Under the pieces are notes generated by a model. That model worked only from the letters and a program-made list of their open reading frames with translations. It did not search any database and had not been told where the DNA came from. From assembly GCA_964425075.1 (NCBI GenBank), contig CAYRKM010000001.1, positions 601,827-665,826 of the forward strand: a stretch of 64,000 nucleotides of DNA. The letters are read 5' to 3'. Numbering within the stretch: position 1 is the stretch's first letter; every line of letters starts with the position of its first letter. Of this stretch, positions 32,280 through 47,304 are shown one piece after another. Position numbers and translations under genes: made by a program. The DNA comes from an uncultured Gammaproteobacteria bacterium (GTDB lineage Bacteria; Patescibacteriota; Microgenomatia; Levybacterales; GWA1-39-11).

Positions 32280-32306
32280 TTGACACACTACTACACAATG
32301 TAGTAG
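32280..32306 (+). promoter_or_regulatory. Promoter -35 TTGACA with overlapping cop-box-like palindromic operator CTACTACA-caa-TGTAGTAG upstream of csoR
   Basis: TTGACA at 32280-32285; perfect 8-bp inverted repeat at 32288-32306; same motif recurs 3 more times in island. Confidence 0.5.
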
Positions 32307-32326
32307 ATTATCTCTATGGGGGGTAT

Positions 32327-32599
32327 ATGTCATACAGGCCTAAAGATACACAAGAGCGAATAATCCACCGTCTCAAGATCGCAAAGGGGCAACTAGAGAA
32401 AGTAATCAAAATGGTTGAAGAAGATACATATTGTATTGATATCCTTCACCAATCGCACGCTATACAGAAAGCCCTAAAAGAGACAGATCATCTCATGCTT
32501 GAGAATCATCTACAAAAATGTGCCGCTGATGCTATTGGCAAAGGTCGCAAAGATGAAGCAATAAAAGAAGTAATGCAAGTTTTCAAAAAATCTCAATGA
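32327..32599 (+). CDS. csoR: CsoR/RcnR-family metal-sensing transcriptional repressor
   Basis: ~91 aa from Met64 of track ORF; conserved C-x24-H-x3-C style residues (YCIDILHQSHAIQKAL) of CsoR family. Confidence 0.75.
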   Translation: MSYRPKDTQERIIHRLKIAKGQLEKVIKMVEEDTYCIDILHQSHAIQKALKETDHLMLENHLQKCAADAIGKGRKDEAIKEVMQVFKKSQ

Positions 32600-33384: not shown

Positions 33385-33422
33385 ATGTAAATATTGAAAT
33401 GTAGGACATAATAACTTTTACT

Positions 33423-34580
33423 ATGCAATTATCAAAACACATATATACAATTGCTTCATTTGTTTTTGTAATATTCGTATTGGGACTAGCCTTTTTCTCC
33501 GATAAAATAGCTGCTACTAATAACTCAACTGTTAAACAAAATCAAGCCGCAGAAAAATTATATGTAGCCTTAGAGGATGATGGTGCAATCGCTGTGATTG
33601 ATACAAAAGATAATTCACTTCTTGGCAAAATCGATCTTACAGAAAAGAATGGGGAGATGGAAGTCGGTTACTCAGCTCATAATGTGCAGGTAGCACCGGA
33701 TGGCAAAAGTGTTTGGGTAACTGCAAACTTTATGGGTCTTGGGGGACATGAAGGAGAAAATGATACCACTGAAAATGAAGAAACAAAAGAAGCATTTTCA
33801 GACCAAGTGATAATCATTGATCCCCAAAAGGATTCTATAGTAAAACGTATTGATATAGGAGCTGATCAGCATCTTGCCCACATAGTTGTAACCAGGGGCG
33901 GAAAAACTGCCTTTGCTACCGCGCAGGAACCAGGACTGGTATATAAAATAAACGGTGTAACATACGAAGTCGAGAAAACTATCCCTCTTACAAAAGATGC
34001 AGAGCCGCATGGTCTAAGACTTTCAGCAGATGACACAAAAGCTTTTGTTGCACTTATAGATGGAAAAGGCATTGGTGTAGTCGATACCAGAACAAATGAA
34101 GTAAAAACTGTCCCACTTTCAGGAAGCGCTGTACAAACAGCGGTTATTCCTAATACTAACTATATTGCAGCTTCGGTGTACGATACAAAGCAGATAGCAT
34201 TTTATGATACCGTTACAGGGGAAGTTTCCTATGTAGATTTACCTGCTGAATCTGAAGGCGCAATCCAATCATATGCTACACCAGATGGAAGGTATTTATA
34301 TATTGCAGATCAAGGATATTACTTCGGCAAACCAACAAGTGATTATGTGTATGTTATTGATGTTCAAGGGAAGCAGGTTGTTGGCAAAATTCAGGCAGGT
34401 GTTGCGCCTCACGGTGTTGTAGTGTCCCCTGATGGGAAAAGAGCGTATATTACAAATCTTTTAAGTGATGACATTTCAGTTATTGATACAGCCACTGATA
34501 AAGAACTTACCAAAATAAAAGTTGGAAAAATGCCAAATGGTATTAGCTTGTGGTCACACCAATCGGGAGGTACACCTTAA
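33423..34580 (+). CDS. Secreted YVTN-family beta-propeller repeat protein
   Basis: Signal/TM then repeated ~40-aa units (YVxxxxDxxIxVIDT) typical of YVTN beta-propeller. Confidence 0.55.
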
Positions 34581-36859
34581 TGGAAACGAAAACATTTCAA
34601 GTTAAAGGGATGCACTGCGCATCCTGCGCAAATATCATAAAAAGAAAATTAGAAAAGCTCGAGGGAGTTACAACTTGCACTGTTAATTTCGGAACAGAAA
34701 AAGCAGAAGTAGCATTTGATGCTACGAAAGTTGGGTTGCTTCAGATGAATGAGCAAGTTAACAAGCTTGGGTATACTCTTAATACTACTGAAGCTCCTAA
34801 TGCTTCTGAACAATCACAAGTTTCGACAGAAAATGAGGCAAAAGAGCAAAAGCTTAAAGAACTTGAAGAAATGAGGCAGAAAACAGCCTTTGTCATGCCG
34901 ATTGCAGCAGTTGTTTTTGTCTTGATGCTCTGGGAAATTCTTGTCTCTAGGGTAGCGTTTCTTCCTACCTTTCCTCTTTCAATGGATGCATTTAACAGAG
35001 CATCATTTATATTGGCAACTCCTGTCATGTTCTGGATCGGGAAACCTTTTATTAACGGCGTGGTACGGTTTATTAAGTATAGAGCCGCAAATATGGATAC
35101 ACTGGTTGGAATTGGTACATTAGTTGCATACTTCTACAGCAGTATTATGCTTCTTTTTCCTGAAATAAAGACGCTTCTAAACGCTCCTGAAGGGTTATAT
35201 TATGATGTAACAATTGTCGTTATTGGATTTATTACGTTAGGTAAGTATCTTGAAGCAAAATCAAAACTTAAGACTGGTGAGGCAATTGAAAAACTTTTAG
35301 GGCTTGCGGCAAAATCTGCTATTGTGATTCGCGATGGAAAAGAATTAGAGATTCCCATTGGACAAGTAGTTGTCGACGATACGCTTATTGTGAAACCAGG
35401 TCAAAAAATCCCAGTAGATGGAGAGATTATTCAAGGAAAATCCTCAATAGATGAGTCCATGATTACAGGAGAATCAATACCAGTTGATAAAACTGTTGGG
35501 GATACCGTGATCGGTGCAACTATTAATAAACACGGCGCATTTCAAATGAAGGCAACACAGGTAGGAGGACAAACAGTTTTGTCTCAAATAATAAAAATGG
35601 TTGAGGCGGCTCAAGGATCAAAAGCGCCTATTGAAAGGATAGCCGATCAAGTATCAGGAGTTTTCGTTCCCATTGTTTTGGTATTTGCAGTTATTGTCCT
35701 TCTTTTATGGCTCACTGTTGGATCTCAATTTATGCCATTCTCTCAAGCTCTCTCGCTTGGTCTTATTAGCTTTGTAGGAATTTTGGTTATCGCCTGTCCA
35801 TGCGCAATGGGTCTTGCAACTCCCACCGCTGTCATAGTCGGCGTTGGTAAAGCAGCGCAAAATGGTATCTTAATTAAGAATGCAGAAAGTCTTGAGAAGT
35901 TTCAAGGTATTAACTTTGTTGTGATGGATAAAACAGGCACGATTACTAATGGAACACCCGCAGTAACGGATATAAAAGTGACTGCAAAAATAGCGCAAAA
36001 AAAGATATTACAGCTGCTTGCGTCTTTAGAAAAACAATCAGAACACCCATTAGCTCAGGCAGTAGTTGATGCGGCAAAAGATGAAAATATTAGCTTCTTA
36101 TCAGTTTCTCACTTCAAGGCATTGGAAGGAAAGGGGCTTGAAGGAAGTATTGCCGGAACGCATTACTTTGCCGGAAATCTTAAATTAGCAGATGATCTTG
36201 GGTTAAAAGTTGATACAAATTTGATTAAAAAATTAACTTCGCAAGGAAAAACACCAGTAGTCTTTGCAACTAAAAAAGCAATTATTGCCTATGTTGCTAT
36301 AGCCGATACCATCAAAGAAGACGCAAAAGAAGCAGTTGCAGCGCTTCATAAGCTTGGTATCAAAGTTGCAATGCTAACAGGAGATAACAGACGTACTGCA
36401 GAACACATTGCAAAGCAAGTTGGCATTGATCGGGTTATTGCAGAAGTGCTACCAAGCGATAAGGCGAAGGAAGTAAAAAAGCTACAGGATGAAGGGTATA
36501 AAGTCGCAATGGTAGGTGATGGTATTAATGATGCACCAGCGCTTGCTACGGCTGATGTGGGAGTGGCAATGGGCACAGGAACTGATGTGGCTATTGAGTC
36601 TGCAGGAATAACCCTTCTTGGCGGTCACATTTCTAAATTACCAAAAGCAATAAAGCTTTCCCGTAAAACTATGCGGGTTATCAAACAGAATCTGTTCTGG
36701 GCATTTTTCTATAATATTGTCGGGATCCCGGTAGCTGCGGGAGCGCTATATCCATTTATAGGTATTATGCTTTCTCCTGCGATTGCAGGGGCAGCGATGG
36801 CCTTTAGCAGTGTTTCAGTCGTGACCAATTCACTTCTTCTAAAACGTCATAGACTTTAA
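34580..36859 (+). CDS. copA: Copper-translocating P1B-type ATPase (CopA-like)
   Basis: N-terminal [13 protein letters not shown]6 CPC ([11 protein letters not shown]), [15 protein letters not shown]. Confidence 0.9.
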
Positions 36860-36863
36860 CTTT

Positions 36864-37589
36864 ATGAAAATTCTCAAGTTGGTAATAATTTGTATTTTTT
36901 TATTGGCCGTTATAGGAGGAGTTATTGTTTGGCAAAAAACAAACTTCTCTCCTTCAAGCCAACAAATAAATAATACTCAAAATCTTGATAAGGAGTATCA
37001 ACTAGCTGAAGGAAAAATAACTATTCTGGATAGACATAATAAGAAAGAAATAGCCACAATCGACTTAGCTGCAAAAGAAGGAGATTTCCTCATTAAATTT
37101 TATCCCCATGACATTACAACGGTAGATGATAAAAATCAGATTTGGATAACAGTAAGTGCATCACAAGAAGAAATACAGACAATAACCAAAGAACTTGTCG
37201 AAAAAACACAAAGAGATCAGCACGTTATGATGGCTACAGATCAGGTAATTGTCATAGATAAAACTTTAGACAAGATTGTAAAAAGAATCCCAATAGGAGT
37301 AAGTTTAGGATTAGCAGATATTATCATTGCGCCAGATAATAGAAACGCTTATGTTACAGTAGAGGCGAGTGCTGTTTACAAAGTTAACATAGATACCCAT
37401 AAAGTGGAATTAATACAACTGCCTCCTGAAAGTAAACCTCATCAGCTTGCTTTATCAGCTTCAGGAGCAGAACTTTACACAAAAAATCAGGTAAATGGTA
37501 GTGTTTATCTAATTTCGACAAAAACAAATGAAGTTAAGAACTTAAAAGATACTGAAGAGATAAAAAATCTTAGATGGTCGAGTCACTAA
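36864..37589 (+). CDS. Secreted beta-propeller-like protein
   Basis: N-terminal TM; partial YVTN-like repeats (VIVIDKTLDKIVKRIPIG). Confidence 0.4.
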   Translation: MKILKLVIICIFLLAVIGGVIVWQKTNFSPSSQQINNTQNLDKEYQLAEGKITILDRHNKKEIATIDLAAKEGDFLIKFYPHDITTVDDKNQIWITVSASQEEIQTITKELVEKTQRDQHVMMATDQVIVIDKTLDKIVKRIPIGVSLGLADIIIAPDNRNAYVTVEASAVYKVNIDTHKVELIQLPPESKPHQLALSASGAELYTKNQVNGSVYLISTKTNEVKNLKDTEEIKNLRWSSH

Positions 37590-38581
37590 ACGAAATAGTA
37601 ATTATGAATAGAAAGTTAATAATCTTATTTGTATTATTAGTTATTTTTGCAGGAGCATTTTTTCTCTGGCAAAGAAATAACTTCTCTGTCTCGAATCAAC
37701 AAATAGGCACTCCCCAAAATACAAATCCTGAGAGTGATCAGTTATCAGATACTAACAATAATCAGTCGTTTATTGAAGGCTTACAAAATAGGGAGTTTAA
37801 AGGCGGAGAAATAAAAATTGAAGAAACACTAGCACATAATAACTCCTATACAAGTTATATTTTTTCTTATCCCTCAGATAATTTAAAAATTTACGGCATG
37901 ATGAATATTCCCGAAGGAGATGGACCGTTTCCGGTTATTGTTCTTAATCATGGTTACTATAATCCTTCAAGTTTTAATAGCGGTGATGGTACACGAACAA
38001 TGGCAGATATTCTTGCGACAAATGGCTACATTACAGTTGCTTCAGATTATAGAGGACATGGACAATCAGAAGATGATGGACAAAGACGAGGAGGTCATCG
38101 ACCGGAGTTTGCAATTGATGTTTTAAATCTTATCGCTTCAATAAAGAGTATTGATAAAGCAGATCCAAATAGGATTGGTATGTGGGGACATAGTATGGGA
38201 GGAGAGGTGGCTTTGAGAGTTGCAGAAGCAACAGATAAAGTAAAAGCAATTGCATTGTGGGCACCAACGAGCGCAAATGCTTCAGATAATGCTAATTTTT
38301 ATGGAGGAAGGCATAATCCTAATACAAATAATCCTGAGAATGATGGTATATCACCTATTAACTATTTACAGTACATCTCAGCACCAATTAGCTTACATCA
38401 GGGATTAGTTGACGTAGAAGTAAAACCTGAGTGGTCAAAGCAATTGAATGATGCTTTGAAAAAAGAAGGAAAGCAGGTTGAATATTTTGAGTATGAAGGG
38501 CAAGATCATAACTTTAGAAATTTAGGTTGGGATTTGATTTCTCAAAGAACTTTAGAGTTCTATAACAAGTACCTAAAGTAG
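37574..38581 (+). CDS. Alpha/beta hydrolase (dienelactone hydrolase / S9 peptidase-like esterase)
   Basis: GHSMGG nucleophile elbow, downstream Asp and His (QDHNF). Confidence 0.65.
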   Translation: MVESLNEIVIMNRKLIILFVLLVIFAGAFFLWQRNNFSVSNQQIGTPQNTNPESDQLSDTNNNQSFIEGLQNREFKGGEIKIEETLAHNNSYTSYIFSYPSDNLKIYGMMNIPEGDGPFPVIVLNHGYYNPSSFNSGDGTRTMADILATNGYITVASDYRGHGQSEDDGQRRGGHRPEFAIDVLNLIASIKSIDKADPNRIGMWGHSMGGEVALRVAEATDKVKAIALWAPTSANASDNANFYGGRHNPNTNNPENDGISPINYLQYISAPISLHQGLVDVEVKPEWSKQLNDALKKEGKQVEYFEYEGQDHNFRNLGWDLISQRTLEFYNKYLK

Positions 38582-38598
38582 TGATTTGTTATCTAACC

Positions 38599-38615
38599 TG
38601 CTACAATATGTAGTA
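38599..38615 (+). promoter_or_regulatory. Cop-box-like operator tgCTACA-ATA-TGTAGta overlapping TACAAT -10 and start codon of blaI-like gene
   Basis: Inverted repeat CTACA/TGTAG with 3-nt spacer; TACAAT hexamer inside. Confidence 0.45.
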
Positions 38616-38992
38616 TGAAACCTAATCTTGGTGAGCTTGAGCAACAGATCATGGACATTGTTTGGGAGCACAAAAACTGCTCTGCTCGTGATGTTCTTAA
38701 TATGATTGAGAAAGATAAAAAACTTGCATACACCACCGTCGCAACAATCTTACAAAGACTCTTCGATAAAGGTCTTCTTACTCGAAATGAAAATACTGCT
38801 GGACATATTTACTCTCCTAAGGTTTCAAAGGAAAAATACACAAAAAATGTCGCTCAGTCGTTTTTAAAGAACTTCATAAATTCTTTTGGTGATACCGCAA
38901 TCGCCTCATTTGCGGACAGTATTGATAAGCTGCCGGAAAAAAAGAGAAAGTATTTTTTAAAAGTTCTCGACGAGTATGATAAAAATAAATAA
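38615..38992 (+). CDS. BlaI/MecI/CopY-family winged-helix transcriptional repressor
   Basis: LGELEQQIMDIVWEHKNCSARDVL...AYTTVATILQRLFDKGLL matches Penicillinase_R family; lacks CopY C-terminal Cys motif. Confidence 0.8.
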   Translation: MKPNLGELEQQIMDIVWEHKNCSARDVLNMIEKDKKLAYTTVATILQRLFDKGLLTRNENTAGHIYSPKVSKEKYTKNVAQSFLKNFINSFGDTAIASFADSIDKLPEKKRKYFLKVLDEYDKNK

Positions 38993-39983
38993 AAATCTTT
39001 CCTTATTTTCGGGGTTATTTCTTTTATTGGGAACGCTTTTACTTTACACGCTTCAAAAGTTTTCTCCACTTTTAGGTCACGTTACATATTACTGTCAGTC
39101 ATTACTAATAGATGCAAATATGGTCCCGATACCCTATTACCTTAGTATGATTCCATTTGCTTTACTTTTCATTATTTTGGCAATTTCTGTAATAAAGTTT
39201 CTTGTTCTAAACATTAAAGTACAATTTCTTAAATTTAAATTAAAAGGAAGTGTTGCTATTGATACTAGCACTTATAAACTAATCAGTCGGCTTGGATTAC
39301 AAGATAAAGCAATCCTTGTAAAGTCAGATAAGCAGTTTGCATTTTGTTTAGGCGTCAGAATGCCCAAGATTTACTTTTCAACTGGTTTACTTACTCAGTT
39401 GTCACAGAAAGAATTAGAAGCAGTGCTATTACATGAACAATATCATTTAGAAAATTATGATACATTTACTATGATTGTCGCATCAGTCGCGCAATCACTG
39501 TTTCCTTTTTTCCCATTGATTAATGATCTTATTAATAAATACAGGATTGAAAGAGAAATAGCTGCTGACAAATTTGCAGTTGACAAGTTAGCTGACAAAT
39601 ACATACTTATATCGGCCCTTAAAAAACTTCTTGCGTTTCCTACTGTTCAGGCAGCACCAGTTGCTGCTATTGCAGACCAGGATACACTAGAACCAAGAAT
39701 TTACTCGCTTGTAAATAAACCATATGTCAGGCGACACTTTAAACTAAAACATGCATTTATAACCTTATTTTCTTGTTTGGTACTTGCAGCAGTTATTGTT
39801 ATGCCAGTACATGCCAAAGAGCTTCACCACGAAGAACATGATGTCATGATGCTCTGTACAGATGGAGAATGTATGAACTCATGCACAAGCGAAAAGAACT
39901 TGAATAAACTTTATTCTGAAATACCAGGTGCTGAAGTGAATCAGTCAATCTCATCACAACCATACAGTCCAATTCATAAGTAG
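38976..39983 (+). CDS. BlaR1/MecR1-like M56 peptidase membrane protein with Cys/His-rich C-terminal tail
   Basis: 4 TM helices, HEQYHL (HExxH) zinc-protease motif; C-terminal HHEEHDVMMLCTDGECMNSC instead of a penicillin-binding sensor domain. Confidence 0.75.
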   Translation: MIKINKNLSLFSGLFLLLGTLLLYTLQKFSPLLGHVTYYCQSLLIDANMVPIPYYLSMIPFALLFIILAISVIKFLVLNIKVQFLKFKLKGSVAIDTSTYKLISRLGLQDKAILVKSDKQFAFCLGVRMPKIYFSTGLLTQLSQKELEAVLLHEQYHLENYDTFTMIVASVAQSLFPFFPLINDLINKYRIEREIAADKFAVDKLADKYILISALKKLLAFPTVQAAPVAAIADQDTLEPRIYSLVNKPYVRRHFKLKHAFITLFSCLVLAAVIVMPVHAKELHHEEHDVMMLCTDGECMNSCTSEKNLNKLYSEIPGAEVNQSISSQPYSPIHK

Positions 39984-40021
39984 CCTCTAATAAATTTACC
40001 CTTGACAACACTAGAATTATA

Positions 40022-40040
40022 CTACTACAATATGTAGTAG
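40022..40040 (+). promoter_or_regulatory. Cop-box-like operator CTACTACA-ATA-TGTAGTAG within promoter (TTGACA 40002-40007; TACAAT 40026-40031) of dsbA-like operon
   Basis: Perfect 8-bp inverted repeat with 3-nt spacer; overlaps -10. Confidence 0.55.
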
Positions 40041-40058: not shown

Positions 40059-40862
40059 ATGACAGAACAAAAAGAAAATAATTATATAACATTACGTGTT
40101 CCAAAGTTTCATAAAACACAACTTTTATTAACAATTGCTTTGATGGTCGCTGCATTTCTTATTGGCTCACTCTGGACAAAACTTCAATACTTGGAAAAAG
40201 GTGGAACTCTTACAAAGGGAGCGACTACTGCAAATGCCCAAGGTGCAGCGCAACAAGTACCACCTCAACAAGCTCCTCCAGAAGACACTACTCCTAAAAA
40301 AGTATCAATTGATGATGACCCGGTTTTAGGTGATAAAAATGCTAAAGTTACACTTATTGACTTCACGGACTATGAATGTCCATTCTGTAAGCGATATTAT
40401 GATGAGACTTTTTCTCAAATAAAAAGAGACTATATTGATACTGGTAAAATGAAATATGTCGTTCGTGATTTACCTTTAAGTTTCCATGCAAATGCTCATA
40501 AAGAAGCGCAAGCTGCAGAGTGCGCACGAGAACAAGGTGGGGACGAAGCATATTTCAAGTATCACGATGAAATATTTAAAAGAACAACCTCAAACGGAAC
40601 AGGTATTGCGCTTGATAAACTTTCAGTAATAGCAAATGATTTAGGCTTAAGTGGTGATACACTACAATCATGTCTTGACGCAGATAAATTTAAAGCAGAG
40701 GTTGATAAAGACTTGGCAGATGCTTCGGCAGTAGGAGCAACTGGCACACCAACATTTTTTATCGGAAAATCAACATCTGATGGTATTATTACAGGTACAA
40801 AAATAGTAGGAGCACAACCATACAGCGCATTTCAGGCAGAAATTGATAAACAACTGAAATAA
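40059..40862 (+). CDS. DsbA-like thioredoxin-fold protein, membrane-anchored
   Basis: N-terminal TM, CPFC active site (DYECPFCKRYY), Thioredoxin_4-like. Confidence 0.75.
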   Translation: MTEQKENNYITLRVPKFHKTQLLLTIALMVAAFLIGSLWTKLQYLEKGGTLTKGATTANAQGAAQQVPPQQAPPEDTTPKKVSIDDDPVLGDKNAKVTLIDFTDYECPFCKRYYDETFSQIKRDYIDTGKMKYVVRDLPLSFHANAHKEAQAAECAREQGGDEAYFKYHDEIFKRTTSNGTGIALDKLSVIANDLGLSGDTLQSCLDADKFKAEVDKDLADASAVGATGTPTFFIGKSTSDGIITGTKIVGAQPYSAFQAEIDKQLK

Positions 40863-40864
40863 TT

Positions 40865-41899
40865 ATGAATTTAGGAGCAGTTTTTTTAACAGGGCTATTT
40901 ACAGGCGGACTTACTTGCCTTGCTGTGCAGGGTGGACTTCTTGCTACAACAATTGCCCAGCGTGAAGAGGAAAAACTTAAGGAGAAAACTAAAACATCCG
41001 GTAATGCCCTGCCAATTCTTTCCTTTCTTGTTGCAAAAGTGGTTGCCTACACTATTCTCGGGTTCTTATTAGGCTGGCTTGGTTCGGTTGTTCAGTTATC
41101 TTTAACAGCTACGGTTATTTTGACAGTTGCAGTCGCTATCTTTATGATCGGTACTGCATTGAACCTTTTAAATGTTCATCCAATATTCCGTTACTTCATT
41201 ATCCAGCCACCTAAGTTTCTAACAAGACTCGTGAGGAATCAGTCAAAAAGTAACAGTATTTTTGCACCAGCTATGCTTGGAGCATTTACTGTATTTATTC
41301 CATGCGGGACTACACAGGCAATGATGGCATTAGCAATTGCCTCTGGTAACCCCCTATATGGAGCAGCAATACTTGCCGCATTTACGTTAGGCACTTCTCC
41401 AGTATTCTTTACACTTGGGTATCTTGCAACAAAACTTGGAGACGCAATGCATCGAAAATTCTTGAAGGTTGCAGCCTATGCGCTTATTCTTCTTGCTGTC
41501 TATAATCTGAATGGAGCAATAGCTCTAACTGGAAGTAACCTGACGCTTGAGAATGCATGGACAAATTTTTACTGCACATTCACTTTCTGTGAGAGGGATT
41601 TTGCACCAACAGCGCAAGCTGCAGTCCCTGTATCAGATGCCACTATAACAATTAATAATGATGGATATAGCCCGAATAACCTTACTGTCAAAGCAGGATC
41701 AAAAGTTACTTTGAAAATTGTCAATGAAGGTGGTGGAGGTTGTACCCAGGCCTTCACCCTACCAAAATATAATATTCAAAAAATAGTTCCGATAGGAAGT
41801 TCTGATCAGGTAACCTTTACTGCGCCGAATGAACCTGGCACGCAACTTGCTTTTATGTGTAGTATGGGGATGTACCGGGGAACAATTAACGTGATATAA
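40865..41899 (+). CDS. CcdA/DsbD-like thiol-disulfide transporter membrane domain fused to C-terminal cupredoxin-like domain
   Basis: Cys in TM1 (GLTCLAVQ) and TM4 (FIPCGTTQ) as in CcdA; C-terminal beta-sandwich with Cys/Met (GGGGCTQ...FMCSMGMY). Confidence 0.55.
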   Translation: MNLGAVFLTGLFTGGLTCLAVQGGLLATTIAQREEEKLKEKTKTSGNALPILSFLVAKVVAYTILGFLLGWLGSVVQLSLTATVILTVAVAIFMIGTALNLLNVHPIFRYFIIQPPKFLTRLVRNQSKSNSIFAPAMLGAFTVFIPCGTTQAMMALAIASGNPLYGAAILAAFTLGTSPVFFTLGYLATKLGDAMHRKFLKVAAYALILLAVYNLNGAIALTGSNLTLENAWTNFYCTFTFCERDFAPTAQAAVPVSDATITINNDGYSPNNLTVKAGSKVTLKIVNEGGGGCTQAFTLPKYNIQKIVPIGSSDQVTFTAPNEPGTQLAFMCSMGMYRGTINVI

Positions 41900-41903
41900 A
41901 CTT

Positions 41904-42131
41904 ATGCAAACAGTAAAATTAAACATTTATGGCATGCATTGTACGAGTTGCGCTTTCAATATTGATGGTGAGCTTGAAGATATGGAAGGAGTTAAAGAAT
42001 CAAAGACAAATTATGCAAAGCAGCAAACTGAAGTAACTTTTGATCCTAAAAAAATTTCACCAGATAAGATTATAAGCATTATTAAAAAGCTTGATGATAG
42101 TTATGATGCTGAAGTTAATAAAGAAGAGTAA
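41904..42131 (+). CDS. copZ: Heavy-metal-associated (HMA) copper chaperone CopZ-like
   Basis: 75 aa with GMHCTSCA MxCxxC motif. Confidence 0.85.
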   Translation: MQTVKLNIYGMHCTSCAFNIDGELEDMEGVKESKTNYAKQQTEVTFDPKKISPDKIISIIKKLDDSYDAEVNKEE

Positions 42132-42136
42132 CATGT

Positions 42137-42646
42137 ATGACAACAGAAAAGAAAGTAATCGGCGGTATTGCACTTTTAACTATAGCCATATTAGTTGGTG
42201 GAGTTTTCTTTTTGTCGGCTAGCTCTAATCAATCCACTTCTGGTAACTCAAATAACAATTCCGATACATCTGTCCCCGAAAGTGAAATTGTTGTTCGTAA
42301 TGGTATGCATTGGCATCCGAAACTATCGATCTATATTAACGGAGAAAAACAGCCTTTCACAAACGGTATTGGTTTAAATGGTGCAGTACATAACCCTATT
42401 CATACTCATGATGACGCTGACAAAGATATTGTTCACATGGAGTTTCAGGGTGTTGTTAGCAAGGAAGATACAAAATTAAGTAACTTCTTTAAGATATGGG
42501 GTAAAGACTTTTCATCAACTCAGATTTTTGATAAGAAAAATGGAGAAGAAGGAACTGTTAAAATGATGGTTAACGGAAAAGAAAACACAGAATTTCAAAA
42601 TTATATGATGAAGGATGGCGATAATATTGAGATACGCTATGAATAA
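42137..42646 (+). CDS. Secreted His-rich hypothetical protein
   Basis: N-terminal TM; HNPIHTHDDADKDIVHMEF His cluster. Confidence 0.35.
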   Translation: MTTEKKVIGGIALLTIAILVGGVFFLSASSNQSTSGNSNNNSDTSVPESEIVVRNGMHWHPKLSIYINGEKQPFTNGIGLNGAVHNPIHTHDDADKDIVHMEFQGVVSKEDTKLSNFFKIWGKDFSSTQIFDKKNGEEGTVKMMVNGKENTEFQNYMMKDGDNIEIRYE

Positions 42647-42851
42647 AGAAATAAAAACAATCGCTCATCTTGCTTGTCCGAAGTGCGGAAAATTACAAAC
42701 AGCAAAAATGCCTACAGATGCCTGTCAGCATTTTTATAAATGTCAAAGCTGTGGTGAAACCATAAAGCCAAAAGAAGGAGATTGTTGTGTATTCTGTTCT
42801 TATGCTGATACAAAATGTCCGCCAAAACAAGCGGAGCAAATGATGATATGA
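42642..42851 (+). CDS. Small Cys-rich (zinc-ribbon-like) protein
   Basis: CPKCG...CQSCG...CCVFCSY Cys pairs in ~70 aa. Confidence 0.4.
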   Translation, partial: NKEIKTIAHLACPKCGKLQTAKMPTDACQHFYKCQSCGETIKPKEGDCCVFCSYADTKCPPKQAEQMMI

Positions 42852-44458
42852 ATACTATGCAAAGAATACTTATTGCTGTCGTTATAGGTATTGCGCTTCT
42901 GGGAGCAGGAATATATTTGTATTCAAATTCTCAGAGGCAAAGAGAAGGATCGAGTAAGACGGGAGAATATTCAAAAGCGGTAAAGAATTATCCTGAAGCA
43001 AAATCTTCTGAGGTTGTAGAGCTAAAGAATGGTGATTCGTACAATTTAACGGCGAGTATAGTAAAGAGAAAAATTAATGGAACAGAAGTAAAAATGCTCG
43101 CCTATAACGGCTCGATTCCAGGCCCACTTATCAAAGTACCACAAGATGCTGAAATTACCATTAATTTCAAAAACGACACTGATGTAGATACAGCCCTACA
43201 TTCACATGGAGTCAGGCTTGAGAATCAATTTGATGGGGTGGTAGATGTTACCCAGAAGGCAATTCCAGTTGGCGGTACTTTTACTTACAAAGTGAAATTT
43301 CCGGATGAAGGGATCTTCTGGTATCATCCTCACTTTCGAGAAGATTATGCTCAAGAACTTGGACTCTATGGTAATTACCTTGTAGCACCTGAACAAAAAG
43401 ACTATTGGGCTGAAGTAGATCGAGAAGAAGCGCTGTTTTTAGATGATATTCTTTTGCAAAACGGGCAGGTAGCAGCTTTCAGCAGAGCAGGGGCAGATCA
43501 TACCTTAATGGGAAGATTTGGGAACGTCATGCTTGTGAATGGTAACGACAATTATAAATTATCGGTTAAACAAGGAGAGAGGATCCGTTTCTATATAACC
43601 AATTCAGCTAATACCAGAGTATTTAATTTTTCTATTCCCAATGCCCGAATGAAGTTAGTAGGCGCGGACAATGGCAAATACGAGCGCGAGGAGTGGGTCG
43701 ATTCGATTGTAATCGGACCGTCTGAACGCTCAGTTATAGAAATCTGGTTTGATCAGGCAGGAGATTATCAGATAGTTAATAAAACCCCTGAAAAAACATA
43801 CACGATGGGCACAATAGCCGTTGCATCTGCTCCAGTAACTACATCATATCTTCTCGTGCCTCGGGTAAATCAAGATTTTATTAATTCTTTATCCTCAATT
43901 CGTCCGCTCTTTACTAAACCTGCTGATAAGACACTTAATATGACTCTTACGATGATGGGAAATATGATGCAGCAAAATCAGAACAATGAGGGTATGCACA
44001 ACATGCATGGAGGCCAAATGATGCCAAATGAAGAAATGCCTTTGAATGACGGAACAGTTGAAAAAATAGAATGGGAAGATGATATGGGACAGATGAACGT
44101 AATGTCCAATACAAAAATGATTACATGGAAACTTGTTGACACAGAAACAAAAGCGGAAAATATGGATATTAAATGGCAGTTTAAAAAAGGAGACAAGATA
44201 AAACTCAAGCTTATCAATGATCCGAAAGCTCAACACCCTATGCAACATCCCATCCATGTTCACGGCCAGCGGTTCTTAGTACTGAATACAAATGGAGTAC
44301 CGAATCAAAACTTGGTTTGGAAAGACACAGTGCTCGTGCAGACCGGTGACACAGTAGAACTACTTGTCGATATGGATAATCCTGGCGACTGGGTGCTTCA
44401 CTGTCATATACCTGAGCATATGGAAGCCGGGATGATGTCACAGTTTGAAGTAATCTAA
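42815..44458 (+). CDS. Multicopper oxidase (CueO/laccase-like) with Met-rich insert (start may be Met12 at 42848)
   Basis: WYHPH and HCHIPEHMEAGMM copper-site motifs; Met-rich segment MMGNMMQQNQNNEGMHNMHGGQMM. Confidence 0.85.
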   Translation: MSAKTSGANDDMNTMQRILIAVVIGIALLGAGIYLYSNSQRQREGSSKTGEYSKAVKNYPEAKSSEVVELKNGDSYNLTASIVKRKINGTEVKMLAYNGSIPGPLIKVPQDAEITINFKNDTDVDTALHSHGVRLENQFDGVVDVTQKAIPVGGTFTYKVKFPDEGIFWYHPHFREDYAQELGLYGNYLVAPEQKDYWAEVDREEALFLDDILLQNGQVAAFSRAGADHTLMGRFGNVMLVNGNDNYKLSVKQGERIRFYITNSANTRVFNFSIPNARMKLVGADNGKYEREEWVDSIVIGPSERSVIEIWFDQAGDYQIVNKTPEKTYTMGTIAVASAPVTTSYLLVPRVNQDFINSLSSIRPLFTKPADKTLNMTLTMMGNMMQQNQNNEGMHNMHGGQMMPNEEMPLNDGTVEKIEWEDDMGQMNVMSNTKMITWKLVDTETKAENMDIKWQFKKGDKIKLKLINDPKAQHPMQHPIHVHGQRFLVLNTNGVPNQNLVWKDTVLVQTGDTVELLVDMDNPGDWVLHCHIPEHMEAGMMSQFEVI

Positions 44459-44535
44459 ATTGTGGAGGAGATGATGACTATGATGGATGAAAAGAGGCAT
44501 AAGCATTAAACAATATCAAGAGGAGAGATCAACAT

Positions 44536-45030
44536 ATGGCAAAGGAACATGAACATAATGTCGAGCCAATAAGAGGAAGCATTTTTGTTTTAACTCTAAA
44601 ACTTGCACTCATACTGCTTATTATAGACTCTCTTTACAGCCTTATATATTATCTCCTTAATTTAGGCTTTGGTATTCCTTTTGATTTCCATCACCACATT
44701 TCAGTAACGCTCTTTATCACACAAGTAGGAAAGATCATACTTGAAATTTTTCTGATTACTTATGTGGTTTTGCAGTGGGCAAATAATACCTATTTTCTTA
44801 CAGATAAGCATTTAATACGAAGAACTGGAATACTTAGCACCGAAGAAGATGTATTTCATTTCGAAAATATCAGATCTATTACAACACACCAGTCTTTATT
44901 AGGAAGGCTTTTTAACTACGGAGACGTTATATTAAAAACAAGTGCTTCAGGAGGGTATCAAGGCGAAGTTACCCTGACAGGAATCTCCAATCCATATAAA
45001 TACGAAAACGCTCTCAAAAAATCCTTTTGA
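44536..45030 (+). CDS. Membrane protein with bacterial PH domain (bPH_2/YdbS-like)
   Basis: Two TM helices then YFLTDKHLIRRTGILSTEEDVFHFENIRSI pattern of bPH_2. Confidence 0.6.
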   Translation: MAKEHEHNVEPIRGSIFVLTLKLALILLIIDSLYSLIYYLLNLGFGIPFDFHHHISVTLFITQVGKIILEIFLITYVVLQWANNTYFLTDKHLIRRTGILSTEEDVFHFENIRSITTHQSLLGRLFNYGDVILKTSASGGYQGEVTLTGISNPYKYENALKKSF

Positions 45031-45033
45031 CTG

Positions 45034-45054
45034 TGTACTACAATTAGTAGTACA
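45034..45054 (+). promoter_or_regulatory. Cop-box-like operator TGTACTACA-ATT-AGTAGTACA upstream of second P-type ATPase
   Basis: 8/9-bp inverted repeat arms; TTGACT -35-like hexamer at 45027-45032. Confidence 0.45.
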
Positions 45055-45081: not shown

Positions 45082-47304
45082 ATGAGTAACAAAACATATA
45101 CCTGTCCAATGCATCCTGAAGTCAGAAAAGACAAGCCTGGTGTTTGTCCTAAATGTGGCATGGCACTTGTTGAAGTAAAGAATGATAAACATGGAATGCA
45201 TGAAAGTCATTTGAGCCATGAGCATACAATGAAATCCCTTGATCAAATGTCATTTTGGGAAAAATTCAAGATGAGTATGACTATGACAATGGGTATGGAC
45301 CATACAGGGAAAGCAGGACGTGAGATGGCGAAGCTAATGGAAGAGGATATTCGAAATAAGTTTTTGGTCTCTCTTCTTTTGACACTTCCAATTGTTGCCT
45401 ATTCTCCACTTGGAAAGAACATCTTTGGTCTTAATCTACCAACGCCGATTCCTGAGAATTGGTTAATGCTGTTACTGACAACTCCTGTTTATTTTTATTG
45501 TGGTTGGATATTCCTTTACTCAAGTTATATTGCTCTTAAACAAAAGACGCTCAATATGGCAGTTTTGATTGCCGTTGGCATTACTGCGGCCTATGTCTTT
45601 AGTATTGTTTTAACTCTTTTAGGATCTGAAGAATCTTTTTATGAAGCAGCAGCAATGCTTACTACTTTTGTCCTCTTTGGTCATTGGATGGAAATGAAAT
45701 CAAGGCGTGGCACAACTGATGCCCTTCAGGCCCTATTTAATCTCGTTCCCCCTCAAGCACGAGTAATGAGAAATGGCAAAGAGCAGTTAATTCCTACCTC
45801 AGAAGTTGTATTAGGAGATATTGTCGTTCTTAAGCCTGGCGATAAAGTGCCGGTTGACGGGGAAATTATAGAAGGAGAAACGTCAATAGACGAATCACTT
45901 GTTACAGGTGAATCAATACCTGTTGCCAAGAAAAAGGGAGATAGTGTCATTGGCGGTTCCATCAATACTTCAGGATCAGTACAATTCAATGCCACAAAAG
46001 TAGGAGGAGATACAGCGCTAGCACAGATTGTAAAGATGGTAGAAACAGCTCAGAACTCAAAAGCTCCCGGGCAGAAGCTTGCTGATAGGTTTGCCAAGTA
46101 TTTAGTTATTGTAGCTGTTGGAGGAGGATTACTAACCTTTGCAGTATGGTTTTTAATTCTCGGCCAACCATTCTTATTTGCAGTCACATTTGCCATTTCA
46201 ACAGTTGTTATTGCCTGTCCTGATGCTCTTGGACTTGCAACACCTACAGCGGTGGCAGTAGGAACAGGACTTGGAGCCAAACACAACATTTTGATTAAAG
46301 ACGCTCCGACACTTGAACAGGTATCCAAGATCCAAGCCGTAGTGTTAGATAAAACAGGCACTCTCACAGAAGGAAAGCCACAAGTGACAGGTATTGCAAC
46401 CGCAAAAGGGTTTTCAGAAAAAGAAGCACTAAGACTCGTGGGAGCCGCAGAGGTAAAATCTTCTCATCCTTTAGCAAACGCCGTAATCGAAGAGCTGAAA
46501 AAAAGAAAACTTGCTTTGCCTACATCAATAGAAAAATTTGAGAATCTTTCTGGGCTTGGCGTAAAAGCCACAGTAGAAGGTAAAAAGGTACTTGTCGGGA
46601 CAGTGAAATTGATGAAAGAAAATAGCGTTGATGTAAAGCCTCTCGAAAACAAAATTAATGAATTTTTAGAAAACGGAAATACTATCATGCTTCTTGCAGT
46701 TGAAGGTACCATTTCAGCTCTTGTAGGAGCTGCAGATCCAATAAAAGAGAATGCAAAAAAAGCTATAGATAAATTAAATGAATTAGGCATAGAAACTGCA
46801 ATGATCACTGGGGACAACGAAAAAACAGCACAAGTAGTTGCGAAGAAGATTGGTATCAAACGAGTATTTGCCGATGTCATGCCTGAAGATAAAGCTTCAT
46901 ATGTTAAAAAGTTGCAGCAAGAAGGAAAATTTGTGGCTATGGTTGGCGATGGTGTAAACGATGCGCCTGCACTTGCTCAAGCAGATATAGGAATTGCTAT
47001 TGGTGCCGGAACGGATGTAGCAATAGAAACAGCGAAAGTTGTACTTATGAAATCTGATCCAGCAGATGTGCTTCGCGCTATTAGACTCTCCAAAGCAACA
47101 GTAAGGAAAATGAAACAAAACCTATTCTGGGCATCTATTTATAATCTTTTGGCAATTCCTGTGGCTGCTGGAGTTCTTTACCCTGCTTTCCAGATTTCGC
47201 TACGTCCCGAAATATCAGCTCTTCTGATGAGCATTTCCTCAATCATTGTTGCAACAAATGCAGTCCTCCTTAATAGAGCAGAAAAAGACCTTATAAGTGT
47301 GTAA
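45082..47304 (+). CDS. Heavy-metal P1B-type ATPase with N-terminal CxxC x2 metal-binding domain, His-rich stretch and non-canonical CPD TM6 motif
   Basis: YTCPMHPE...CPKCGM; HGMHESHLSHEH; IACPDALGLATP; DKTGTLT; GDGVNDAP. Confidence 0.85.
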   Translation: MSNKTYTCPMHPEVRKDKPGVCPKCGMALVEVKNDKHGMHESHLSHEHTMKSLDQMSFWEKFKMSMTMTMGMDHTGKAGREMAKLMEEDIRNKFLVSLLLTLPIVAYSPLGKNIFGLNLPTPIPENWLMLLLTTPVYFYCGWIFLYSSYIALKQKTLNMAVLIAVGITAAYVFSIVLTLLGSEESFYEAAAMLTTFVLFGHWMEMKSRRGTTDALQALFNLVPPQARVMRNGKEQLIPTSEVVLGDIVVLKPGDKVPVDGEIIEGETSIDESLVTGESIPVAKKKGDSVIGGSINTSGSVQFNATKVGGDTALAQIVKMVETAQNSKAPGQKLADRFAKYLVIVAVGGGLLTFAVWFLILGQPFLFAVTFAISTVVIACPDALGLATPTAVAVGTGLGAKHNILIKDAPTLEQVSKIQAVVLDKTGTLTEGKPQVTGIATAKGFSEKEALRLVGAAEVKSSHPLANAVIEELKKRKLALPTSIEKFENLSGLGVKATVEGKKVLVGTVKLMKENSVDVKPLENKINEFLENGNTIMLLAVEGTISALVGAADPIKENAKKAIDKLNELGIETAMITGDNEKTAQVVAKKIGIKRVFADVMPEDKASYVKKLQQEGKFVAMVGDGVNDAPALAQADIGIAIGAGTDVAIETAKVVLMKSDPADVLRAIRLSKATVRKMKQNLFWASIYNLLAIPVAAGVLYPAFQISLRPEISALLMSISSIIVATNAVLLNRAEKDLISV

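What the first reader, a model, noticed from the sequence alone, without database searches (positions are those of the whole stretch)
38615..39983. BlaI/BlaR1-like repressor/protease pair apparently repurposed as a metal sensor
The BlaR1-like protein keeps the M56 HExxH peptidase and four TM helices. It replaces the penicillin-binding sensor domain with a short extracytoplasmic tail rich in His/Cys/Met (HHEEHDVMMLCTDGECMNSCTSE). The partner repressor is BlaI/CopY-family without the CopY Cys-rich metal site. Embedded between copper ATPases, oxidase and chaperone, this suggests proteolytic derepression triggered by periplasmic metal binding, a mechanism not classically described for copper regulons.
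Basis: inference. Interest (0 to 1): 0.75.

Follow-up and report, generated by a model that had tools for sequence, protein, structure and literature searches.

The report
Copper-island BlaI/BlaR-like proteolytic switch
A repressor and membrane-protease pair of the antibiotic-sensing BlaI/BlaR1 type has lost the penicillin sensor and, in a large group of uncultured bacteria, appears instead to control a mobile copper-defence gene island through a tiny cysteine/histidine-rich outside-facing module; the principle has one known precedent in cyanobacteria.

Summary
ORFs 38615-38992 and 38976-39983 encode a BlaI/MecI/CopY-family repressor without the CopY Cys motif and an M56 (BlaR1-fold) zinc protease without a penicillin-binding domain. 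The 59-residue His/Cys/Met tail is conserved and predicted to face outside.

New findings:
- A 17-bp palindrome, TACTACAnnnTGTAGTA, lies on four promoters of the copper island: csoR-copA1, blaI itself, dsbA-ccdA/cupredoxin-copZ-MCO, and copA2.
- The palindrome recurs behind the M56 gene in 39 of 47 related loci.
- Gene order blaI-M56-dsbA and copper genes are conserved down to about 30% identity. All named members are Patescibacteria.
- One loop Cys (C40) and one tail Cys (C303) are essentially invariant. Extracytoplasmic Cys counts are almost always even.
- The His cluster is specific to the subclade.

Most likely this is a regulated-proteolysis switch that derepresses copper and thiol defence on envelope copper stress, alongside cytoplasmic CsoR. 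The trigger is unproven and could be direct Cu binding or copper-driven thiol oxidation. I rate it a new variant of a known kind, of moderate to high interest.

The parts
38615..38992 (+). BlaI/MecI/CopY-family repressor (125 aa). It has no CopY CxC motif. The invariant GDTAIAS98-F99A stretch (nt 38888-38914) aligns to the BlaI N101-F102 cleavage site.
   Evidence: Pfam PF03965 5e-28; CopY_TcrY below cut-off; alignment to S. aureus BlaI 1sd4; family alignment A2
38976..39983 (+). M56 (BlaR1-fold) membrane zinc protease of 335 aa, with no penicillin-binding domain
   Evidence: Pfam M56/M48; phmmer and Foldseek best hits are BlaR1 8exp/8exs; AF2 pLDDT 86.8, pTM 0.80
39072..39134 (+). Extracytoplasmic loop (aa 33-53), predicted beta-hairpin directly upstream of TM2. 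It is the counterpart of BlaR1 loop EL1. It contains H35, Y38 and invariant C40.
   Evidence: AF2 strands 36-43 and 46-52; C40 80/80 and 109/109, Y38 80/80, H35 79/80; EL1 role in BlaR1 (PMC9834060)
39432..39557 (+). Catalytic gluzincin motif H153-E154-x-x-H157 ... E194, with D198, on the cytoplasmic side. It includes the re-entrant hydrophobic segment 162-182.
   Evidence: Invariant in 109/109 representatives; aligned to BlaR1 HEYAH...E
39804..39926 (+). Conserved C-terminal extracytoplasmic tail (aa 277-317): PVHAKELHHEEHDVMMLCTDGECMNSCTSEKNLNKLYSEIP. Predicted as a beta-hairpin (279-294) plus two short helices. Candidate sensor residues are E282, H284, H285, H288, D289, M291/292, C294, C299 and C303.
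38599..38615 (.). Operator TGCTACAATATGTAGTA, overlapping a TACAAT -10 element and abutting the blaI ATG (autoregulation; possibly a leaderless mRNA)
   Evidence: a palindrome lies upstream of blaI in 37/53 related loci
40023..40039 (.). Operator TACTACAATATGTAGTA, 15 nt after TTGACA (40002-40007), overlapping the -10 element of the dsbA-like operon promoter
   Evidence: the same arrangement occurs in 39/47 related loci
32289..32305 (.). Operator TACTACACAATGTAGTA, just after TTGACA (32280-32285) at the csoR-copA1 operon promoter
45036..45052 (.). Operator-like site TACTACAATTAGTAGTA (1 mismatch), after TTGACT (45027-45032), upstream of copA2
32310..32326 (.). CsoR-type box (ATCTCTATGGGGGGTAT). 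In related loci it reads ATATCCCnnnnGGGGGATAT. It is a separate motif that abuts the csoR ATG.
32327..38581 (+). Predicted regulon unit 1: csoR (x-C-H-C type), a cupredoxin-like/DUF7282 protein, a beta-propeller protein, CopA1 (CPC P1B ATPase), a second beta-propeller protein and an alpha/beta hydrolase
40059..45030 (+). Predicted regulon unit 2: membrane-anchored DsbA-like protein (CPFC), CcdA/DsbD_2-cupredoxin fusion, CopZ (CxxC), a conserved 169-aa protein, a GDCCVFC zinc-ribbon protein, a Met-rich multicopper oxidase and a bPH_2 protein
45082..47304 (+). Predicted regulon unit 3: second P1B ATPase (CPD motif, His/Met-rich N-terminus)

Best explanation
The pair is a BlaI/BlaR-type regulated-proteolysis switch that controls the copper and envelope-thiol defence island carrying it.

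Resting state (inferred). Dimers of the BlaI-like repressor sit on 17-bp palindromes, TACTACAnnnTGTAGTA, built onto the -10 elements of four promoters: csoR-copA1, blaI-M56, dsbA-ccdA/cupredoxin-copZ-MCO, and copA2.

Sensor (inferred). The M56 protein is anchored by three TM helices. Its HExxH...E protease domain is in the cytoplasm. Outside, a small module is formed by the loop before TM2 (H35, Y38, C40) and the C-terminal tail (E282, H284, D289, C294, C299, C303, plus H285/H288/M291/M292 in this subclade).

Trigger (inferred). Copper in the envelope changes how the tail engages the loop. It could do so by binding the Cys/His ligands directly, or by oxidising or occupying the Cys pairs.

Transmission (by homology). 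As in BlaR1, where the sensor domain acts on loop EL1 and helix alpha3, the change passes through TM2 to the protease. The protease then cuts the repressor in its dimerisation region, around the invariant AIAS98-F99A.

Outcome (inferred). All four units are derepressed. The csoR-copA1 unit also needs cytoplasmic Cu(I) to release CsoR from its own adjacent box. The cell thus combines an envelope signal with a cytoplasmic one.

Shown here: domain identities, fold, conservation, predicted topology, operator distribution and synteny. Inferred: DNA binding by this repressor, cleavage, and the nature of the signal.
For: Family and fold.

Catalytic residues: H153, E154, H157, E194 and D198 are invariant in 109/109 representatives.

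Topology:
- Query residues 62-270 align to BlaR1 111-322. The tail therefore starts where the extracellular BlaR1 linker starts.
- The N-terminus and the segment before TM3 are K/R-rich. The tail has D+E 9 against K+R 4.
- AF2 predicts confident hairpins at 36-52 and 279-294.

Operator:
- Four sites in the window against 0.10 expected; 0/100 shuffles reach four. All four lie in the stretch just upstream of a gene start; three follow a TTGAC[AT] box.
- 88 distinct sites across the window and 90 loci. Arms are invariant and flanks are unconserved. The centre T (82/88) equals T6 of a TACAnT -10 element. TTGAC[AT] lies 14-15 nt upstream in 56/88.
- The core TACA/TGTA is the known BlaI/MecI/CopY half-site (PMC7253601).
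- The palindrome is distinct from the CsoR box. It is present three times in L009, which has no csoR within 17 kb.

Synteny (67 distinct related loci):
- blaI adjacent in 53/53.
- A dsbA-like gene within 400 bp downstream in 34/47.
- The palindrome behind M56 in 39/47.
- Copper genes in 27/30 loci of at least 8 kb.
- Other BlaIR families fetched in the same scan: 0/11, 0/11 and 0/4.

Sensor conservation: C40 109/109. Tail Cys number 3 or 1 in 104/109. C294 and C299 are present together or absent together in 80/80. H284 and D289 co-occur.

Precedents: copper-dependent PetR degradation by PetP (10.1101/2020.07.31.226407); the BlaR1 EL1/alpha3 mechanism (PMC9834060).
Against: - There is no experimental evidence for DNA binding, cleavage or metal binding in this family.
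- The even Cys count and the paired loss of C294/C299 are the classic signature of structural disulfides rather than ligands.
- The His cluster (H285, H288, partly H35/H284) is not conserved in more distant members that keep the same dsbA/copZ/copA context. It cannot be the universal sensor.
- PetP senses copper without any such tail.
- CsoR in the same island already provides copper sensing.
- An invariant cytoplasmic Cys beside the active-site strand (C124) and an invariant Cys in the repressor (C22) offer alternative sensing sites.
- The model coordinates could not be inspected, so loop-tail contacts and Cys-Cys distances are not verified.
- The residue aligned to the BlaI scissile Asn is Ser.
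Confidence: 0.55

Rival explanations
1. Thiol/disulfide sensor rather than a metal-binding sensor. The ectodomain Cys pairs (C40-C303 and C294-C299) report the extracytoplasmic thiol-disulfide state. Signals could be copper-catalysed mis-oxidation or the load on the DsbA-like/CcdA system. The main output is the DsbA-like + CcdA-cupredoxin + CopZ unit, which then resets the sensor. Copper is an indirect trigger.
For: - Loop plus tail Cys total 2 or 4 in 103/109 representatives. C294/C299 are kept or lost together. In members with a single tail Cys, both positions are replaced by other residues, mostly Ser.
- The most tightly linked gene is the DsbA-like oxidoreductase (34/47 directly downstream), then CcdA-cupredoxin (21/30).
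- The His cluster is not conserved across the clade.
- From background knowledge: Scs and DsbC systems link copper tolerance to disulfide repair.
Against: - The same operator also precedes copA, csoR, MCO and an RND pump.
- The subclade containing this window has added a dense His/Glu/Asp/Met patch (HHxxHD..MM), which is typical of metal sites.
- The PetP precedent is directly copper-dependent in extracts.
Confidence: 0.25
2. Copper is sensed on the cytoplasmic side, and the tail is only a structural cap. Candidate sites are the invariant C124 next to the active-site strand of the protease, or the invariant C22 of the repressor. Occupancy would make the repressor cleavable.
For: - C124 is present in 102/109 representatives and C22 is invariant in 20/20.
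- PetP has no tail yet needs copper.
- PetR degradation was shown in cell extracts, where sidedness is lost.
Against: - CsoR already covers cytoplasmic Cu(I) at the same locus.
- The ectodomain is among the best-conserved parts of the protein and shows co-varying residues.
- BlaR1-family signalling is outside-in.
Confidence: 0.1
3. The pair senses something unrelated to copper, such as general envelope stress or an unknown ligand, and merely travels with copper genes on a mobile island. Alternatively, the palindromes are RNA hairpins or terminators, or CsoR sites, rather than BlaI operators.
For: - The island is flanked by terminase and serine-recombinase genes.
- Three palindromes were also flagged as terminator-like hairpins.
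- No ligand is known for most atypical BlaR proteins (PMC13492132).
Against: - Linkage to copper genes holds in 27/30 loci down to about 30% identity, in different arrangements.
- The palindrome arms are conserved in sequence, with no compensatory changes. They sit at a fixed 14-15 nt from TTGAC[AT], and the centre T matches a -10 element.
- The CsoR box is a separate GC-rich motif. L005 P_csoR has only that box, and L009 has palindromes without csoR.
Confidence: 0.1

Closest known systems
PetR/PetP of Synechocystis sp. PCC 6803 (Garcia-Canas et al. 2021; bioRxiv 10.1101/2020.07.31.226407)
   Same: - A BlaI/CopY-family factor without the CopY Cys site.
- An M48/M56 BlaR-like membrane protease without a transpeptidase domain.
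- Overlapping genes in the order regulator-protease.
- A copper connection. In PetRP, degradation of the regulator needs both protease and copper, and a conserved extracytoplasmic loop before the last N-terminal TM helix is the proposed sensing site.
   Different: - PetP has 4 TM helices and essentially no C-terminal tail. Its proposed ligands are two Met residues, not Cys/His.
- Its operator core is GACN5GTC, which is absent from the four promoters here.
- Its regulon is the plastocyanin/cytochrome c6 swap (4 genes), not copper export or thiol defence.
- It is cyanobacterial rather than from Patescibacteria.
- Direct sequence comparison could not be done because the PetP sequence was not obtainable with the tools.
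BlaR1/BlaI and MecR1/MecI of Staphylococcus and Bacillus
   Same: - M56 gluzincin fold with re-entrant HExxH...E helices.
- An extracellular loop directly upstream of the helix leading to the protease.
- A C-terminal extracellular sensor after the last TM helix.
- A repressor with a wHTH domain, a TACA/TGTA operator and autoregulation.
- A conserved Phe at the position aligned to the BlaI scissile bond.
   Different: - The roughly 250-aa penicillin-binding sensor is replaced by a tail of 59 aa, about 41 of them conserved.
- One fewer N-terminal TM helix, so the N-terminus is predicted inside.
- The operator has a 3-nt rather than 2-nt centre.
- The regulon is copper and thiol defence, not a beta-lactamase or PBP2a.
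CopY/CopR/TcrY copper repressors of Firmicutes
   Same: - The same DNA-binding family and the same TACA/TGTA half-site.
- They repress copA/copZ operons.
   Different: - CopY senses Cu(I) itself through a C-terminal CxCx4CxC motif and needs no protease. That motif is absent here, and the TIGR02698 score is far below cut-off.
- The cop box has a 2-nt spacer.
Atypical BlaIR systems without a beta-lactam sensor (CenIR of C. difficile, mycobacterial BlaIR, PvmSR of P. aeruginosa)
   Same: An M56 protease with a short, unannotated C-terminal region next to a BlaI-like repressor. Such proteins make up the bulk of about 15,000 M56 entries (PMC13492132).
   Different: Those systems have no identified signal and no copper context. 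Here the regulon, the operator and a conserved candidate ligand-binding module can all be named.
Two-tier copper sensing such as CueR + CusRS, and Scs (ScsB/ScsC) copper-tolerance thiol oxidoreductases (background knowledge, not tested here)
   Same: - The logic of separate cytoplasmic and envelope copper sensors.
- A DsbA-like plus DsbD-like pair dedicated to copper stress.
   Different: Envelope sensing there uses histidine kinases, and Scs is under CpxRA. Here a protease/repressor pair takes that role.

Membership tests
BlaI/MecI/CopY repressor family (Pfam PF03965) | N-terminal winged-helix Penicillinase_R domain above the family threshold | tested here: met
   98.2 bits against a cut-off of 22.6, covering residues 5-117. 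Best PDB matches are BlaI and MecI.
BlaI/MecI/CopY repressor family (Pfam PF03965) | Palindromic operator with a TACA/TGTA core at its own promoter and at target promoters | tested here: met
   TACTACAnnnTGTAGTA lies on four promoters and is conserved in related loci. The spacing is 3 nt rather than 2. Binding itself was not tested.
BlaI/MecI/CopY repressor family (Pfam PF03965) | Protease-sensitive site in the C-terminal dimerisation domain (BlaI N101-F102) | tested here: inconclusive
   The aligned residues are S98-F99, within an invariant GDTAIASFA stretch. Phe is conserved and Asn is not. Cleavage is not testable here.
CopY/TcrY copper-binding repressors (TIGR02698) | C-terminal CxCx4CxC (or CxC) Cu(I)/Zn(II) site and a score above the equivalog cut-off | tested here: not met
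   53.5 bits against 121.95, matching residues 8-88 only. The protein has a single Cys (C22) and ends in DEYDKNK.
BlaR1/MecR1 beta-lactam sensor-transducers | M56 gluzincin protease domain with HExxH...E between TM helices | tested here: met
   PF05569 54.9 bits against a cut-off of 31. HEQYH and E194 are invariant. Foldseek to 8exp gives E 4e-6.
BlaR1/MecR1 beta-lactam sensor-transducers | C-terminal extracellular penicillin-binding (transpeptidase-like, SxxK) sensor domain | tested here: not met
   The protein ends 59 residues after the last TM helix. NF000326 gives 41.5 bits against a cut-off of 400. None of the 120 listed hits (of 269) or the 150 representatives carries PF00905 or exceeds about 385 aa.
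BlaR1/MecR1 beta-lactam sensor-transducers | Four TM helices with the N-terminus outside | tested here: not met
   AF2 and hydropathy give TM helices at 6-32, 54-90 and 257-275, plus a re-entrant segment at 164-182. The N-terminus is K-rich and predicted inside.
PetR/PetP-type copper-dependent BlaIR systems | A BlaI-family factor without the CopY Cys site, encoded directly upstream of (overlapping) an M48/M56 protease without a TP domain | tested here: met
   the genes overlap by 17 nt. Description of PetRP.
PetR/PetP-type copper-dependent BlaIR systems | Copper-dependent degradation of the regulator by the protease | not testable with these tools
   This needs in vivo or extract assays. Only genomic association with copper genes and operators is shown.
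PetR/PetP-type copper-dependent BlaIR systems | PetP architecture (4 TM helices, 14-residue loop with two conserved Met, no C-terminal tail), GACN5GTC operator and petE/petJ regulon | tested here: not met
   The protein has 3 TM helices, a 21-residue loop with H/Y/C, and a 59-residue tail. No GACN5GTC occurs in the four promoters. The regulon is copper export and thiol defence.
PetR/PetP-type copper-dependent BlaIR systems | Orthology to cyanobacterial PetP/PetR by sequence or tree | not tested
   The PetP sequence (BAA16703.1) could not be retrieved with the tools. All close relatives found with a name are from Patescibacteria.

The most novel reading that the evidence does not exclude
The miniature ectodomain is a direct copper receptor. 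Cu(I) would bridge the invariant loop Cys40 and tail Cys303, assisted in this subclade by H35/H284/H285/H288, E282/D289 and M291/M292. This clamps the tail onto the EL1-like hairpin and switches on the cytoplasmic M56 protease.

If so, this would be the first defined ligand site of a non-beta-lactam BlaR protein. It would also be an envelope copper sensor that works by regulated proteolysis instead of a histidine kinase. The system is widespread in Patescibacteria, wired in tandem with CsoR, and carried on a phage-like mobile island.
Probability: 0.3. Interest if true: 0.8.

Novelty: new variant of a known kind. Interest (0 to 1): 0.6.

Why it matters
How BlaR-like proteases without a penicillin-binding domain are switched on is an open question. 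Only about 6% of M56 proteins have that domain. Even for PetP, the one copper-dependent case, the sensing site is unknown.

This family offers an unusually readable example:
- a 60-residue module with a handful of invariant Cys/His/acidic residues;
- a sharply defined 17-bp operator;
- a regulon of recognisable copper and disulfide-repair genes;
- a second, cytoplasmic sensor (CsoR) on the same promoter.

It makes the question directly testable by heterologous reconstitution.

It also shows how genome-reduced, uncultured Patescibacteria may regulate metal stress, and that the whole system moves on a terminase/recombinase-bearing element.

Tried and rejected
- The canonical cop box TACANNTGTA gave only two hits, far from the island, at chance level. 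It was rejected in favour of the 3-nt-spaced palindrome.
- The PetR operator GACN5GTC is absent from the four promoters.
- CsoR as binder of the palindrome was rejected, because a separate GC-rich CsoR box exists and the two motifs occur independently.
- The palindromes as terminator hairpins (flagged) were rejected, given sequence-invariant arms and fixed spacing to TTGACA.
- Retrieving the PetP sequence for a direct comparison failed: the PNAS paper is not held, and the preprint supplements contain no sequences.
- A 77-sequence alignment was too diverse for the metagenome scan, so a smaller one was used.
- Literature searches for BlaR/M56 plus copper in Patescibacteria returned nothing relevant. 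The 'BlaI' hits were the author name Blainey.
- Model coordinates are not exposed, so Cys-Cys and His distances could not be measured.
Full report
**1. What is there**

The first product (125 aa):
- It is a BlaI/MecI/CopY-family winged-helix repressor (Pfam Penicillinase_R, E 5e-28).
- It scores far below the CopY/TcrY equivalog cut-off: 53.5 against 121.95 bits, matching only residues 8-88.
- It has a single Cys and no CxC motif.

The second product (335 aa):
- It matches Peptidase_M56 and M48, with HEQYH at 153-157.
- Its only significant sequence matches among solved structures are S. aureus BlaR1 and an HtpX fragment.
- An AlphaFold2 model built on 80 homologues is confident (pLDDT 86.8, pTM 0.80). 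Its best fold matches in the PDB are the BlaR1 cryo-EM structures (E 4e-6).
- It has no transpeptidase domain and ends 59 residues after the last TM helix.

Hydropathy and the model give three membrane-spanning helices (6-32, 54-90, 257-275). A hydrophobic segment at 164-182 lies between the HExxH motif and the third zinc ligand E194. It corresponds to the re-entrant helices of BlaR1, so it is not a fourth TM helix.

**2. Topology and conservation of the tail**

Query residues 62-270 align to BlaR1 111-322. The tail therefore begins where the extracellular linker of BlaR1 begins. The N-terminus (MIKINKN) and the 19 residues before the last TM helix (6 K/R, 0 D/E) are basic. The tail is acidic, with 9 D/E against 4 K/R. 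The predicted topology is N-terminus inside, loop 33-53 outside, protease inside and tail outside.

Conservation in 80 homologues of 48-96% identity:

| Region | Residue | Count |
|---|---|---|
| Loop | H35 | 79/80 |
| Loop | Y38 | 80/80 |
| Loop | C40 | 80/80 |
| Tail | E282 | 78/80 |
| Tail | H284 | 76/80 |
| Tail | H285 | 69/80 |
| Tail | D289 | 76/80 |
| Tail | C294 | 70/80 |
| Tail | C299 | 70/80 |
| Tail | C303 | 80/80 |

All 120 listed hits (of 269 found) are about 270-385 aa and carry only M56/M48 domains.

AF2 predicts a beta-hairpin in the loop (36-52) and another in the tail (279-294), followed by two short helices. Confidence there is 85-90. This suggests a small folded ectodomain rather than a disordered tail. 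Contacts between the two hairpins could not be checked, because coordinates are not exposed.

**3. The wider family changes the emphasis**

A profile search of 1.84 billion representatives finds 196 clusters (at 50% identity) at E <= 1e-30, nearly all 300-340 aa. Among 109 full-length representatives:
- C40 is present in 109/109.
- The catalytic H/E/H/E/D residues are present in 109/109.
- The cytoplasmic C124 is present in 102/109.
- The tail carries 3 Cys (80 cases) or 1 Cys (24 cases). Loop plus tail therefore total 4 or 2 in 103/109.

C294 and C299 are present together (70) or absent together (10) in the 80 close homologues. The 10 lacking them still have C40 and C303.

By contrast, H35, H284 and D289 are each present in only about half of the wide family, and H285/H288 are confined to the subclade of this window. 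H284 co-occurs with D289 and with E282 (Fisher p 4e-12 and 6e-6, not corrected for phylogeny). These three positions would lie on one face of the predicted hairpin; that is my inference from strand register.

The universal feature is therefore a loop-tail Cys pair with an optional second pair. The His/Glu/Asp/Met patch is an elaboration in this subclade.

**4. The operator and the regulon**

An exact 13-bp palindrome flanks the pair on both sides. Extended to TACTACAnnnTGTAGTA with up to two mismatches allowed, it occurs four times in the 64-kb window (none with more than one mismatch). The expectation is 0.10, and 0/100 shuffles reach four.

| Site | Position relative to genes |
|---|---|
| 32289-32305 | 3 nt after a TTGACA, upstream of csoR (true start about 32327) |
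| 38599-38615 | abutting the blaI ATG |
| 40023-40039 | 15 nt after TTGACA, upstream of the dsbA-like gene |
| 45036-45052 | after TTGACT, upstream of the second ATPase |

Across the window and 90 related loci there are 88 distinct sites with at most one mismatch:
- The arms are invariant and the flanks are unconserved.
- The centre T (82/88) is the T6 of a TACAnT -10 element.
- TTGAC[AT] lies 14-15 nt upstream in 56/88.

These are operators built onto promoters, not RNA hairpins. The TACA/TGTA core is the established half-site of BlaI, MecI and CopY, whose operators have a 2-nt centre (PMC7253601).

The csoR promoter also carries a separate GC-rich box: ATATCCCnnnnGGGGGATAT in relatives, and ATCTCTATGGGGGGTAT at 32310-32326 here. 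In L005 the csoR promoter has only this box. In L009 there are three palindromes and no csoR within 17 kb. I therefore assign the palindrome to the BlaI-like repressor and the GC-rich box to CsoR. On this reading the csoR-copA1 unit is under dual control.

**5. Synteny**

Genome and metagenome scans returned loci with 74% down to about 29% identity. Counts for 67 distinct loci of the clade and for the more distant BlaIR pairs fetched by the same scan:

| Feature | Clade | Other BlaIR pairs |
|---|---|---|
| blaI directly upstream | 53/53 | 16/16 |
| dsbA-like gene within 400 bp downstream | 34/47 | 0/11 |
| Palindrome within 200 bp after the M56 stop | 39/47 | 0/11 |
| At least one copper gene (loci of >= 8 kb) | 27/30 | 0/4 |

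Copper-related genes in those 30 loci were copA (18), csoR (10), ccdA-cupredoxin (21), copZ (13), MCO (5) and dsbA (27). In L007/L008 an RND efflux pump sits behind the operator instead.

Every homologue that carries a taxon name is from Patescibacteria: Woesebacteria, Levybacteria, Daviesbacteria or WWE3.

The window's island genes are recognisably copper-related:
- CsoR with the C-H-C signature.
- CopZ with CxxC.
- A CPC-type ATPase.
- A Met-rich multicopper oxidase.
- A DsbA-like protein with CPFC.
- A DsbD_2-cupredoxin fusion.

**6. Mechanism**

The best-supported reading is a BlaIR-type regulated-proteolysis switch for envelope copper stress. The repressor occupies the four operators. A signal at the loop/tail ectodomain is passed through TM2, the homologue of BlaR1 helix alpha3. 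In BlaR1 that helix links loop EL1 to the protease and moves when the sensor domain releases EL1 (PMC9834060). The HExxH...E domain then cleaves the repressor in its dimerisation region. There an invariant GDTAIAS98-F99A aligns with the BlaI N101-F102 site.

CsoR adds a cytoplasmic Cu(I) check on the first operon.

Domain identities, conservation, predicted topology, operator distribution and synteny are shown. DNA binding, cleavage and the signal are inferred.

Whether copper binds the ectodomain directly or acts through thiol oxidation cannot be decided here:
- Direct binding is plausible given a C40/C303 pair, a CxxxC (C299/C303) and the His/acid/Met patch.
- Thiol oxidation is suggested by the even Cys counts, the paired loss of C294/C299, and the tight linkage to DsbA-like and CcdA genes.

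A cytoplasmic sensing site (C124, or repressor C22) is a weaker third option.

**7. Comparison with what is known**

- PetR/PetP of Synechocystis is a BlaI/CopY-family factor lacking the CopY cysteines. An M48/M56 BlaR-like protease degrades it only when copper is present. It controls the plastocyanin/cytochrome c6 switch (commentary PMC7896320; review PMC10141476).
- BlaR proteins without a transpeptidase domain are the majority of the family (PMC13492132).

The present system differs from PetRP in several ways:
- architecture (3 TM helices and a conserved Cys/His tail, against 4 TM helices and no tail);
- operator;
- regulon (copper export, oxidation and disulfide repair, against a cofactor swap);
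- lineage;
- pairing with CsoR.

It fails the defining tests for CopY (no Cys site) and for BlaR1 proper (no penicillin-binding domain). I found no paper describing this Patescibacteria family.

**8. Verdict**

The finding is a new variant of a known kind: a copper-linked BlaIR system with a defined candidate sensor, operator and regulon. Interest is moderate to high, mainly because it makes the sensing mechanism of non-beta-lactam BlaR proteins experimentally approachable. Everything about the trigger remains inference.

Noticed in passing
window 27334-31580 and 47362-49537; L003 1973-3445 and 17886-19166: The copper island looks like cargo of a mobile, phage-like element. It is preceded by a ParB-methylase, a second DNA methylase, a small-terminase-like HTH protein, a large terminase and an XRE regulator. 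It is followed by a large serine recombinase and tRNA-Gln. The same terminase...island...recombinase frame occurs in another genome.
   Followed up: partly
window 32280-32327: The csoR-copA1 promoter carries two different operators in tandem: the BlaI-type palindrome and a CsoR-type GC-rich box abutting the csoR ATG. This implies dual (envelope plus cytoplasmic) control. In L005 the same promoter has only the CsoR box.
   Followed up: partly
window 38599-38617: The blaI operator contains a TACAAT -10 element ending 7 nt before the ATG, with no room for a ribosome-binding site. The blaI-M56 mRNA may therefore be leaderless, or read through from the upstream hydrolase gene.
   Followed up: no
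window 39804-39821 (M56 aa 277-282): A signal-peptidase-like motif, P-V-x-A|x-E, directly follows the last TM helix and is conserved (P277 106/109, A280 85/109). BlaR1 is cut by signal peptidase SpsB at the equivalent linker. If the motif is cut here, the invariant C40-C303 pair could keep the released tail tethered.
   Followed up: no
window 39345-39347 (M56 C124) and 38678-38680 (repressor C22): Two cysteines are conserved on the cytoplasmic side. C124, in FAFCLG on the strand next to the active site, is present in 102/109. C22, in the repressor's DNA-binding domain, is present in 20/20. Both are unexplained and are possible alternative copper or redox sites.
   Followed up: no
window 45082-47304: The second P1B ATPase has CPD instead of the usual CPC/CPH motif in the TM6 metal site. 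It also has an N-terminal CPMHPE...CPKCGM domain followed by a His/Met-rich stretch. Its subtype and metal specificity are unclear.
   Followed up: no
L002 and L003 (both OZ246394.1, 1.6 Mb): One genome carries two paralogous copies of the whole island (M56 55-56% identical to the window's). The record is labelled 'uncultured Gammaproteobacteria', although all named relatives are Patescibacteria.
   Followed up: no
L007 9007-13823; L008 2874-4546: In one subclade, whose M56 tail has HHDHYD and a single Cys, an RND efflux system (membrane-fusion protein plus ACR_tran pump) sits directly behind the M56 gene and its operator. The dsbA-like gene follows further downstream with its own operator.
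   Followed up: partly
window 42137-42851: Two small conserved genes of unknown role travel with the island. One is a 169-aa His-rich protein (53-63% identical in eight related loci). The other is a 78-aa zinc-ribbon protein with a GDCCVFC motif, whose ORF overlaps the start of the multicopper oxidase gene.
   Followed up: no
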